Assembly: GCF_963921235.1 (NCBI RefSeq)
Contig: NC_086097.1
Coordinates: 59,398,001 to 59,462,000 of the forward strand
Length of the DNA stretch: 64,000 bases
Source: Mobula hypostoma
Taxonomy: Eukaryota
Direction: 5' to 3'
In this document: piece after piece, positions 27,681 to 28,832 of the stretch
Layout of the letters: the number at the start of each line of letters is the position of its first letter
How positions within the stretch are numbered: the first letter of the stretch is position 1
Position numbers and translations under genes: made by a program
Notes under the pieces: generated by a model
What the model saw: the letters and a program-made list of their open reading frames with translations, nothing else
Database searches by the model: none
What the model was told of the DNA's origin: nothing

Positions 27681-28832
27681 TCACTTCTTTTCCTTCAGGG
27701 TCCTGCTGTAACCCAGGCTGTCCACAGCTAGCCCTCCCCACTGCCCTGACTCAGTGGGAGAAGGGCCAAAAGTCTCTTCCTCAGTCAAAGGGAAGTTAGC
27801 GAAAGGCAGCATGTACCACACATCCCGCACCTTATCCTTCAAATCCATATTCTTCCTCATTCCCTCGGTTGGTAGCTGCTGTTTGATTTTCTCCAAACTG
27901 AAGCACTTAGCCTGGGCTGCCTCTGCAGCCTCTTCAGCCTCCTGCAGTCGAGACGTCAGCGTCTTCTCTGACTCCTCCAGCTCTCGCCCCAGTTTCAGTG
28001 CTTCTGACTCACGCTTCGTGCCCATCCCTATCTGGGATGCAATTACATCACCAGCTTCTTCCAATCTGTTCTGGATTGATTTCTTGAGTTTCTGCTGATC
28101 CTTTTGAAGGTTGGTCATTGTTTCGTCTCTCTGGATTAATTCATCAGTAAATGAACGCAGTTTTGGCTCGGAATTACGTTTCCCTGTCTCCACTTTTTTG
28201 AGTGTGAACTCCAATTCTTCAGTGGTTGTCCAGGGCTCCGGCACTCGCCTCACATCATAGTCCCCCAAGGCGAATCCAAATCCTAGGTGATCATCCACAT
28301 ACACCAAAACTCCAAACGCCTCCACATCCCCCATGGTCTTCCTCATGCCCCACAGGAAGGTTGCAGGGGCTCTGGATATGCCCTGTGGCATCTTTTCCAA
28401 CCAGAAGAATCCTAGGGGACCTATAACGGCCATCTTCTCCTTGTCGGCCTCACTCATCAGGATCTGGCAACATCCACTCCTGAGATTCAGCACATTAAAC
28501 CACGTTGCACTATTCAGACAGGCCATTGCGTCCTCGGCCCTCAGGGCTGTATTTCGGTCAATGACAGTGCGCCTGTTCAGAGTTCTATAATCCACACACA
28601 CGCTGCCTACGTCTTCCACGGCTACAGGGTCCAGTCGCTGTGACCTCTCTCTCACTGAGGTGTCTTCAGCGGTCAACTCCCCTCCCTCGTGGCATTTCGG
28701 AGCGTCTGCTAAGAGGGTCTCACCGTCAAATACTTCCCCGAGGCCGTACCACAATAGGCTCTCGTTTAAATTCAGTACCGGCCCAAGGCTGCTACACAGG
28801 TCGACACAATCAGCTCGAAACACTGGGTGCAC
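27681..28832 (-). CDS. Chimeric ORF (383 aa): truncated Gypsy RT fused in frame to myosin heavy-chain rod fragments
   Basis: aa79-181 are RT motifs ([40 protein letters not shown]); aa204-323 are myosin coiled-coil ([22 protein letters not shown]...KRESE, [27 protein letters not shown]). Expression is unknown. Confidence 0.75.
   Translation of the reverse strand: [383 protein letters not shown]
27864..28223 (-). pseudogene. Transduced sarcomeric myosin II heavy-chain rod fragments (MYH16-like)
   Basis: Three blocks match, in native order, the myosin motifs LELTLAKVEKEK...KLTKEK, RLEEAGGATSAQIE..KKREAE..K.RR.LEE and KLA.[17 protein letters not shown].KQRLQ.E. Confidence 0.9.

What the first reader, a model, noticed from the sequence alone, without database searches (positions are those of the whole stretch)
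27681..28832. Gypsy retrotransposon with captured myosin heavy-chain rod fragments in frame with its RT
Seen in the sequence: inside an element with complete cis signals (LTRs, tRNA-Pro PBS, PPT, TSD), pol runs through RT to YVDD (28301-28290). About 22 codons later it switches to ~120 aa of coiled coil (28223-27864), then returns to element-like sequence; the integrase-tail motif RSQRIRKLPDRLAY survives at ~27505-27550. From known sarcomeric myosin II sequences, the three blocks correspond to rod segments at roughly MYH7 957-1000, 1150-1182 and 1392-1424. Motifs such as LKL.RELEE and [13 protein letters not shown] resemble MYH16 as I recall it. Inference: the RT thumb, RNase H and integrase core were replaced by host muscle-gene sequence, giving a non-autonomous gene-transducing LTR family. 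Such capture is well known in retroviruses and plant LTR elements, but I know of no myosin-carrying vertebrate Gypsy.
Basis: partly seen in the sequence, partly recalled or inferred. Interest (0 to 1): 0.92.

Follow-up and report, generated by a model that had tools for sequence, protein, structure and literature searches.

The report
Ray jumping gene carrying a myosin piece
This is a decayed copy of a crippled Gypsy-type jumping gene of stingrays and devil rays that long ago swallowed an intron-free piece of the muscle gene MYH16 and then copied that piece to hundreds of places, where gene annotators now mistake it for myosin genes.

Summary
A 384-codon open frame (27681-28835, minus strand) runs from a relic reverse transcriptase (YVDD at 28301-28290) straight into about 120 residues of myosin rod. 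It lies inside a 3,990-bp element with two LTRs, a primer-binding site and a polypurine tract.

- **Source gene.** The insert comes from the host's own MYH16-type gene. Over 102 nt the window copy is 86% identical, and an older copy 94% identical, to an exon at G000:C68:14.707 Mb. Other MYH paralogues score 50-66%.
- **Origin from mRNA.** The insert has no introns, so it came from spliced mRNA.
- **The three blocks.** They are what internal deletions left of a longer captured stretch, roughly MYH16 residues 925-1420.
- **Amplification.** 81 genomic sites carry the window-type RT-myosin junction, 364 carry its block-3 sequence and 387 carry a younger subfamily's longer myosin block. Reversed-pattern controls gave 0 each time.
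- **Spread.** Relatives occur in public protein models of four ray species, often named "myosin-16-like".
- **Selection.** I found no sign of selection on the open frame.

This is LTR-mediated retroposition (Tan et al. 2016), already a known kind of event. The scale and persistence are unusual. This scan had already noted the same family elsewhere in this genome (e1-7791871).

The parts
29954..30641 (-). 5' LTR (TG...CA)
   Evidence: Direct repeat with the 3' LTR: 627/680 aligned bases identical, K2P 0.083.
29934..29951 (-). Primer-binding site TGGGGGCTCATCCAGGAT, 2 nt after the LTR end
   Evidence: Read. Likeness to the tRNA-Pro primer site of murine leukaemia virus is recalled, not tested. 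No tRNA gene was found in the window.
29063..29827 (-). gag relic (PNMA-like capsid region, decayed zinc knuckle), two in-frame stops
   Evidence: tblastn of Gypsy pol P0060 residues 147-256 onto 29602-29273: 36% identity, E 1e-12. Frames.
28848..29207 (-). Protease relic (LDTGAQ), same frame as the RT-myosin ORF, one stop
   Evidence: 54% identical to P0036 residues 444-563, E 4e-31. Frame.
27681..28835 (-). 384-codon open frame: RT relic + MYH16 rod pieces + tail
   Evidence: Only the window copy and 1 of 29 other copies are open up to codon 364.
28248..28667 (-). Reverse-transcriptase relic (fingers and palm, YVDD at 28301-28290), with a 31-residue internal deletion
   Evidence: 44% identical to P0036 residues 816-1000 (E 1e-40) and 51% to P0060. 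RVT_1 E 2.5e-4.
28207..28238 (-). RT-myosin junction of the window's subfamily
   Evidence: This 32-mer has 63 genomic matches at <=3 mismatches; the 32-mer of another copy (L021) has 81; reversed controls gave 0. Contigs of public runs X1, X2 and X3 bridge it.
28062..28223 (-). Myosin block 1 (aa 205-258), about MYH16 residues 949-1002 (Latimeria P0148 numbering)
   Evidence: 21/54 identical to P0148 and 23/54 to Amia MYH16. It crosses the host exon junction at MYH position 985 without an intron.
27969..28061 (-). Myosin block 2 (aa 259-289), about MYH16 residues 1145-1175
   Evidence: 20/34 identical to three MYH16 proteins, in an alignment that starts three residues earlier, at aa 256. tblastn to host MYH exons gave E 3e-10.
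27864..27968 (-). Myosin block 3 (aa 290-324), MYH16 residues 1383-1418
   Evidence: 88/102 nt and 27/34 aa identical to the host MYH16-type exon at G000:C68:14707343-14707444 (L066). Other host MYH paralogues score 65/102 and 51/102.
27684..27863 (-). Tail of unclear origin (possibly the acidic C-terminal tail of pol); the window copy lacks one base near 27744
   Evidence: All 29 other copies have one more base at codon 363-364. The same holds in most of the depth of 4 runs (table 4).
27496..27546 (-). pol C-terminal motif RSQRIRKLPDRLAYVVP, in another frame than the ORF
   Evidence: 12/17 identical to the last residues of Gypsy pol P0037 (1439-1455), E 0.008. Similar C-terminal motifs were read in P0053, P0060 and P0086.
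27359..27371 (-). Polypurine tract GGTGGGCGGAGAG abutting the 3' LTR
   Evidence: Read.
26652..27358 (-). 3' LTR (carries a 27-nt internal tandem duplication)
26648..26651 (-). Candidate target-site duplication CTGG (partner CTAG at 30645-30642)
   Evidence: 3 of 4 bases agree. Weak.

Best explanation
The window holds one old, dead copy of a non-autonomous Ty3/Gypsy LTR retrotransposon.

**Origin (inferred).** During reverse transcription of a Gypsy element, the enzyme switched templates onto a spliced MYH16 mRNA and back. The pol region from the end of the RT palm to pol's C-terminal tail was replaced by MYH16 rod cDNA, in the sense direction and in frame. The replaced part covers the RT thumb, RNase H and integrase.

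**Spread.** The chimera kept its LTRs, primer-binding site, polypurine tract, gag and protease. It could therefore be transcribed, packaged and copied by proteins of autonomous relatives (inferred). It spread to hundreds of sites or more and split into subfamilies through further internal deletions (shown). It is present in stingrays and devil rays (shown from public protein models). The window's subfamily lost the first part of the RT thumb and MYH16 residues of about 925-948 and 1003-1141.

**The open frame.** It is a historical leftover, not a maintained gene.
For: **1. Source gene.**
- Over 102 nt of block 3 an older family copy (L064) is 96/102 identical to the host exon L066 (G000:C68:14.707 Mb). 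The window copy is 88/102 and a subfamily-B copy about 80%.
- The host MYH7-like gene on C40 scores 64-66% and the fast-MYH cluster 50-62%.
- The best-scoring long hits that carry a name for that host exon are mostly called myosin-16 or myosin-16-like, including Latimeria, Amia and Monodelphis.

**2. No introns.**
- The host exon starts at KKLTSRLQ, preceded by intron sequence. Family copies continue upstream with coding sequence.
- Family members run across MYH exon junctions 985, 1044 and 1092.

**3. Gypsy backbone.**
- PR is 54% and RT 44-51% identical to full-length Gypsy pol proteins. The pol C-terminal motif is retained.
- In P0002 the RT runs on to the motif that corresponds to YIGHIIS before myosin begins.

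**4. Amplification with the same junction.**
- 40 of 40 scored matches cover at least 701 of the 720 query bases (query positions 1-7 to 709-719). The 39 other than the window itself are 89-92% identical.
- 14 of 29 other loci align in one unbroken piece from gag to the 3' LTR end.
- 32-mer counts were 63, 81, 364 and 387, against 0 in reversed controls.

**5. Independent data.** Contigs of public runs from three coded organisms cover the whole stretch. Those of two organisms (runs X1, X2 and X3) bridge the junction.

**6. Other species.** Relatives are public protein models of Mobula hypostoma, M. birostris, Hypanus sabinus and Hemitrygon akajei. The internal myosin junctions are the same in Mobula and Hypanus.

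**7. Possible helpers.** Long-frame relatives of the autonomous Gypsy P0036 exist in the genome.

**8. Decay.** Copies carry stops and frameshifts. dN/dS between subfamilies is 0.61-0.99, close to the within-subfamily baseline of 0.58-0.78.
Against: - Pfam Myosin_tail_1 does not hit the insert.
- Against distant MYH16 and MYH7-like proteins the BLASTP scores are nearly equal. The MYH16 assignment therefore rests on one 102-nt host exon plus signature residues read by eye.
- No autonomous partner with matching LTRs was identified. The closest full-length pol found is only 50% identical in RT.
- All internal deletions seen in subfamilies A and B keep the reading frame. Pure neutral decay would not predict this, although recombination between in-phase coiled-coil repeats could explain it.
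- The exon map came from the fast-MYH cluster, not from MYH16 itself, except for one junction.
Confidence: 0.9

Rival explanations
1. The chimeric gag-PR-RT-myosin frame is (or was) a working protein kept by selection. The MYH16 coiled coil might, for example, serve as a multimerising module that helps the defective element get into particles, or the frame might be a domesticated host gene.
For: - Both internal deletions of subfamily A and both of subfamily B, and the shared ancestral junctions, keep the frame.
- Young subfamily-B copies have open frames of up to 637 aa in the loci read, and up to 836 aa in the table.
- The myosin part has the lowest between-subfamily dN/dS, 0.48-0.61 against 0.78-0.99 for RT.
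Against: - The neutral baseline by the same method is 0.58-0.78 within subfamily A, so 0.61 is not distinguishable from it.
- The 0.21 seen within subfamily B is an artefact of choosing loci by protein score.
- 28 of 30 subfamily-A copies have stops or frameshifts before codon 364.
- The copies are dispersed and LTR-flanked, unlike a single conserved host locus.
- Deletions between in-phase coiled-coil repeats would stay in frame without any selection.
Confidence: 0.08
2. The myosin block is a later, separate retrocopy insertion into this one element, or an assembly chimera.
For: None found.
Against: - The same junction occurs at 63-81 sites with 0 in controls.
- It is bridged by contigs in public runs of two coded organisms.
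- Four species' assemblies yield protein models of the chimera.
- There is no poly(A) and no internal target duplication beside the block.
Confidence: 0.01
3. The coiled coil is the element's own sequence, or a generic coiled coil that only resembles myosin.
For: Pfam Myosin_tail_1 gives no hit. Only weak coiled-coil families appear.
Against: - Nucleotide identity to a host MYH16-type exon is 86-94%, against 50-66% to other MYH genes.
- All 11 PDB hits with E<0.06 are myosin heavy chains.
- Autonomous relatives have RNase H and integrase at that place.
Confidence: 0.01

Closest known systems
LTR-mediated retrocopies of animals (Tan et al. 2016, Genome Res 26:1663, PMC5131818; abstract, section 6 and passages read)
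   Same: - Intron-free host mRNA sequence sits inside a discontinuous LTR retrotransposon.
- It is often in the sense direction and in frame.
- The whole unit can act as a non-autonomous LTR element and be copied again.
   Different: - Those cases are young and have one to a few insertion sites. Here there are about 80 sites for one junction type and several hundred for the lineage.
- This lineage has several subfamilies and is shared by four ray species.
- Microsimilarity at the switch points, a hallmark in that paper, could not be examined here.
Maize Bs1 (as described in passages of PMC5131818)
   Same: An LTR element that carries exon pieces of host genes, with all copies sharing the same switch points.
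   Different: Bs1 has 1-5 copies per Zea species, is a plant element, and combines three parental genes.
Host-mRNA capture by crocodilian endogenous retroviruses (Chong et al. 2014, PMC4299795; passages read)
   Same: A vertebrate retroelement lineage that carries a captured host mRNA, is shared between species, and is present in several copies.
   Different: - Those are retroviruses with 9 (KIT-ligand) and 6 (nectin3) copies.
- They captured whole coding regions, reported as under purifying selection.
- Here the element is a Gypsy, the cargo is a rod fragment, there are hundreds of copies, and no selection was detected.
Oncogene transduction by acutely transforming retroviruses (recalled textbook knowledge, not from a call)
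   Same: - Part of pol or env is replaced by spliced host cDNA through recombination during reverse transcription.
- The product is defective and depends on a helper.
   Different: There is no envelope gene and no infectious virus. The cargo is a structural fragment with no evident selective value for the element.
Sister families noted by this scan in the same genome: Gypsy elements carrying RBM25 (e1-7790852) and SUDS3 (e1-7790823)
   Same: By those notes: pol replaced by spliced host mRNA, and the chimera multiplied.
   Different: I did not check them. Whether they share the backbone or LTRs of the myosin-carrying family is unknown.

Membership tests
Ty3/Gypsy (Metaviridae) LTR retrotransposon | Two direct long terminal repeats ending TG...CA | tested here: met
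   LTRs at 30641-29954 and 27358-26652, 627/680 identical.
Ty3/Gypsy (Metaviridae) LTR retrotransposon | Primer-binding site next to the 5' LTR and polypurine tract next to the 3' LTR | tested here: inconclusive
   Both sequences are present at the right places. Pairing of the primer site with tRNA-Pro is recalled only, because no tRNA-Pro sequence was at hand (one search found no tRNA in the window).
Ty3/Gypsy (Metaviridae) LTR retrotransposon | Target-site duplication of 4-6 bp | tested here: inconclusive
   CTAG against CTGG, 3 of 4.
Ty3/Gypsy (Metaviridae) LTR retrotransposon | pol related to Gypsy pol, with the order PR-RT-RNase H-integrase | tested here: met
   PR then RT in one frame. 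The closest full-length relatives (P0036, P0037, P0060 and others) carry RVT_1, the RT-RNase H domains and rve. RNase H and integrase themselves are absent from this element.
Autonomous retrotransposon | Complete RT, RNase H and integrase | tested here: not met
   RT lacks 31 finger residues and the thumb. RNase H and integrase are replaced by myosin sequence.
LTR-mediated retrocopy / cargo-carrying non-autonomous LTR element (Tan et al. 2016) | Internal host-gene sequence without introns | tested here: met
   Exon junction 1399|1400 is shown on the MYH16-type gene itself. Junctions 985, 1044 and 1092 are shown on the exon map of the fast-MYH cluster.
LTR-mediated retrocopy / cargo-carrying non-autonomous LTR element (Tan et al. 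2016) | Parental gene present in the same genome and closest to the insert | tested here: met
   G000:C68:14.67-14.72 Mb. 86-94% nt identity over 102 nt, against 50-66% for other paralogues.
LTR-mediated retrocopy / cargo-carrying non-autonomous LTR element (Tan et al. 2016) | Flanked on both sides by parts of one LTR retrotransposon | tested here: met
   RT relic upstream; pol C-terminal motif, polypurine tract and LTR downstream.
LTR-mediated retrocopy / cargo-carrying non-autonomous LTR element (Tan et al. 2016) | Short microsimilarity at the template-switch points | not tested
   This needs the DNA of the autonomous parent and of the MYH16 exons at both outer junctions. At protein level the inner junctions lie at LEEA/LEEA and R(I/L)EE repeats.
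LTR-mediated retrocopy / cargo-carrying non-autonomous LTR element (Tan et al. 2016) | Further rounds of retroposition of the chimera | tested here: met
   63 and 81 sites share the junction, 364 and 387 sites carry the myosin blocks, controls 0.
Myosin heavy chain gene (as several public models are named) | Motor domain plus full rod (Pfam Myosin_head, Myosin_tail_1) | tested here: not met
   No Myosin_tail_1 or head hit. Only about 120 rod residues remain, in three pieces, inside a retrotransposon.

The most novel reading that the evidence does not exclude
Myliobatiform rays may harbour a Gypsy lineage that captures host mRNAs serially. By this scan's unchecked notes the cargoes include MYH16 here and RBM25 and SUDS3 elsewhere in this genome. 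Its cargo-carrying defective derivatives out-multiply ordinary retrocopies by orders of magnitude and persist across species splits. That would make them a vertebrate, RNA-based counterpart of plant Pack-MULEs. A bolder version adds that the long read-through frame, coiled coil included, was kept open in the active master copies because it mattered for the element's RNA or particles.
Probability: 0.25. Interest if true: 0.7.

Novelty: new member of a known kind. Interest (0 to 1): 0.5.

Why it matters
**Biology.** It shows that an LTR-mediated retrocopy in a vertebrate can become a successful repeat family in its own right, rather than a one-off. The family has hundreds of copies, several subfamilies and at least four host species.

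**Annotation.** Public gene sets of rays contain models built on these copies. Names include "myosin-16-like", "myosin-7B-like", "myosin heavy chain, skeletal muscle-like" and "putative uncharacterized protein MYH16". The element also appears inside alternative isoforms of unrelated genes (SDHAF3, TMEM192). Counts of myosin genes in rays, or any claimed "MYH16 expansion", would be inflated unless this family is masked.

**Open question.** Hundreds of copies 80-94% identical to a MYH16 exon could link transposon silencing to a host gene. I did not test this.

Tried and rejected
- **Pfam on the ORF and on the 120-aa insert.** No myosin family, only weak coiled-coil hits. This turned out to be a sensitivity limit, not absence.
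- **Non-muscle MYH genes** (C68:25.5 Mb, C36:126.1 Mb, C45:100.2 Mb) as source: no meaningful match.
- **BLASTP of family members against distant MYH16 and MYH7-like proteins:** scores too close to tell the paralogue.
- **Word-based protein search with the long subfamily-B insert for longer proteins:** only 2 hits, both ray element models.
- **RNA evidence:** no RNA holder listed. The four runs laid are contigs whose RNA label is a guess, so nothing can be said about expression.
- **dN/dS within subfamily B** (0.21 for the myosin part) was rejected as ascertainment, because those loci were picked by protein score on that very part.
- **Hand count of the table:** about 83 of 150 subfamily-B matches have no stop in the 225-aa stretch. 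This is not clearly more than decay of young copies would leave, so I did not use it.
- **Earlier-findings look-up by sequence:** nothing returned.
- **Window scans:** no further copy of the element and no tRNA gene.
- **Manta and devil-ray genome preprint** (10.64898/2026.10.27.761883, passages searched): 0 mentions of myosin or MYH.

Full report
**What is there**

The window holds a 3,990-bp LTR element on the minus strand (26652-30641).
- Its LTRs (30641-29954 and 27358-26652) are 627/680 identical, K2P 0.083.
- The 5' LTR is followed after 2 nt by TGGGGGCTCATCCAGGAT (29951-29934). I recall this as the tRNA-Pro primer site with two CpG decays. No tool tested it.
- The 3' LTR is preceded by the purine run GGTGGGCGGAGAG (27371-27359).
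- The flanks read CTAG and CTGG, a 3-of-4 target duplication.
- The internal part is only 2.6 kb.
A short linker, bounded by a stop on each side, separates them.
- A gag relic lies upstream in another frame.

**The open frame**

- Residues 57-196 are a reverse-transcriptase relic, 44-51% identical to full-length Gypsy pol proteins (E down to 1e-40). It has YVDD at 28301-28290 but lacks 31 finger residues.
- From residue 205 to 324 (28223-27864) the frame reads myosin rod.
- Pfam's Myosin_tail_1 did not hit.
- phmmer against PDB chains gave 17 sequences at E<=10. The 11 with E<0.06 are all myosin heavy chains, with a best E of 1.1e-9.
- The motif RSQRIRKLPDRLAY (27546-27496) matches the very C-terminus of Gypsy pol. 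It is in a different frame in this copy.

**Source of the insert**

- The genome's sarcomeric MYH genes were mapped with Pfam and with a myosin fragment.
- One divergent gene at G000:C68:14.67-14.72 Mb has an exon (L066) reading [35 protein letters not shown].
- Over 102 nt an older family copy (L064) is 96/102 identical to it. The window copy is 88/102 and a subfamily-B copy about 80%.
- The MYH7-like gene on C40 gives 64-66% and the fast cluster 50-62%.
- The best-scoring long hits that carry a name for that host exon are mostly called myosin-16 or myosin-16-like. I did not count them.
- Against distant MYH16 and MYH7-like proteins, BLASTP cannot tell the paralogue.

**Captured as spliced RNA**

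- In the host gene the exon begins at KKLTS, after intron sequence. Family copies carry coding sequence there instead.
- Using the exon map of the fast-MYH cluster, family members run across exon junctions 985, 1044 and 1092 without introns. The window copy crosses 985.

**The three blocks are remnants**

- Sister forms recovered from 1.84 billion protein representatives (28 hits at E<=1e-3) and from the genome keep more of the insert.
- P0002 begins the myosin part near position 940 (lungfish P0014 numbering) right after the RT motif that corresponds to YIGHIIS.
- Subfamily B, P0006 and P0008 keep positions of about 985-1112.
- L064 keeps positions of about 1119-1191.
- The inner junctions (about 1112|1147 and 1184|1400) are the same in Mobula and Hypanus models, so they are old. 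They lie at repeated R(I/L)EE and LEEA motifs.
- The window's subfamily lost two further pieces.

**A real, amplified family**

- 40 of 40 scored genome matches to 720 nt across the junction cover at least 701 of the 720 bases. The 39 other than the window itself are 89-92% identical. There were 2,223 first-look candidates.
- 14 of 29 other loci align in one piece from gag to the LTR end. The rest align in collinear pieces or are truncated.
- Exact-pattern counts with up to 3 mismatches were as follows, with reversed controls 0 every time:

| 32-mer | Genomic matches |
|---|---|
| Window's junction | 63 |
| Junction of copy L021 | 81 |
| Window's block 3 | 364 |
| Subfamily B's long block | 387 |

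- Subfamily-A copies are on average 90.3% alike (30 loci) and subfamily-B copies 96.4% (12 loci). Both sets are best hits, so they are biased towards the young.
- Contigs of four public runs from three coded organisms cover all 30 bins. Those from two organisms bridge the junction.

**State of the copies**

- All 29 other subfamily-A copies have one more base near codon 364, so the window's last 20 codons are private. Most of the depth in the four runs shows the same.
- Only the window copy and 1 of the 29 others are open up to that point.
- dN/dS (Nei-Gojobori) between subfamilies A and B is 0.85 for gag, 0.85 for PR, 0.99 for RT, 0.61 for myosin and 0.64 for the tail. The within-A baseline is 0.58-0.78 (an earlier estimate is).
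- I see no evidence of selection on the frame.

**Distribution and naming**

- Relatives are public models of Mobula hypostoma, M. birostris, Hypanus sabinus and Hemitrygon akajei.
- Names include "myosin-16-like", "myosin-7B-like", "myosin heavy chain, skeletal muscle-like" and "putative uncharacterized protein MYH16".
- The element also appears inside isoforms called SDHAF3 and TMEM192.
- One model is 100% identical to a locus of this genome, so the genome behaves as that of a devil-ray-like fish.

**Helpers**

- Relatives of the full-length Gypsy P0036 (58-81% identical to it) with long open frames are present in the genome.
- I did not show that any shares LTRs with this family, and I name none.

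**Comparison with what is known**

- The structure fits LTR-mediated retroposition (Tan et al. 2016; abstract, section 6 and passages read). Those authors already proposed that such chimeras can behave as non-autonomous elements, with a few copies each.
- Crocodilian retroviruses captured KIT-ligand and nectin3, with 9 and 6 copies (Chong et al. 2014, passages read).
- Four full-text searches found no paper on a myosin-carrying Gypsy element or on MYH16 in rays. The recent mobulid genome preprint does not mention myosin.
- This scan had already noted the same family on another piece of this genome (e1-7791871), and sister cases with other cargo.

**Verdict**

This is a new member of a known kind of event, and what stands out is its copy number, its persistence and the annotation errors it causes.

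Noticed in passing
Public models P0009 and P0034 (Hypanus sabinus): Family copies are built into alternative isoforms of unrelated genes, named SDHAF3 isoform X1 and TMEM192 isoform X1. In P0009 the host part joins the element exactly at ...FQ|VGVEE..., the old inner myosin junction. 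This suggests that the junction offers a splice acceptor.
   Followed up: partly
L064 = G000:C1:34554180-34554560; also G000:C1:175392813-175393154: These are less-deleted, MYH16-closer forms of the family. They keep the stretch AERAMRAKVEK...DRLEE that all other forms seen have lost, and are 94% identical to the host exon over 102 nt.
   Followed up: partly
window 24624-25276 and 31881-32810 (+ strand): Two separate fragments of a LINE-type reverse transcriptase (motifs [10 protein letters not shown] and NVNKTKQLVIDFRK) flank the element. The region is a patchwork of repeats.
   Followed up: no
window 27269-27335: The 3' LTR carries a 27-nt tandem duplication that the 5' LTR lacks.
   Followed up: no
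L031 = G000:C18:48744023-48748231: A non-muscle-type myosin rod stretch is contiguous over Pfam Myosin_tail_1 positions 514-920 and has 6 stops. It looks like an ordinary processed pseudogene, unrelated to the Gypsy family.
   Followed up: no
G000:C68:15.31-15.89 Mb and C68:14.67-14.72 Mb: About nine tandem fast-type MYH genes lie some 0.6 Mb from the MYH16-type source gene on the same contig.
   Followed up: no
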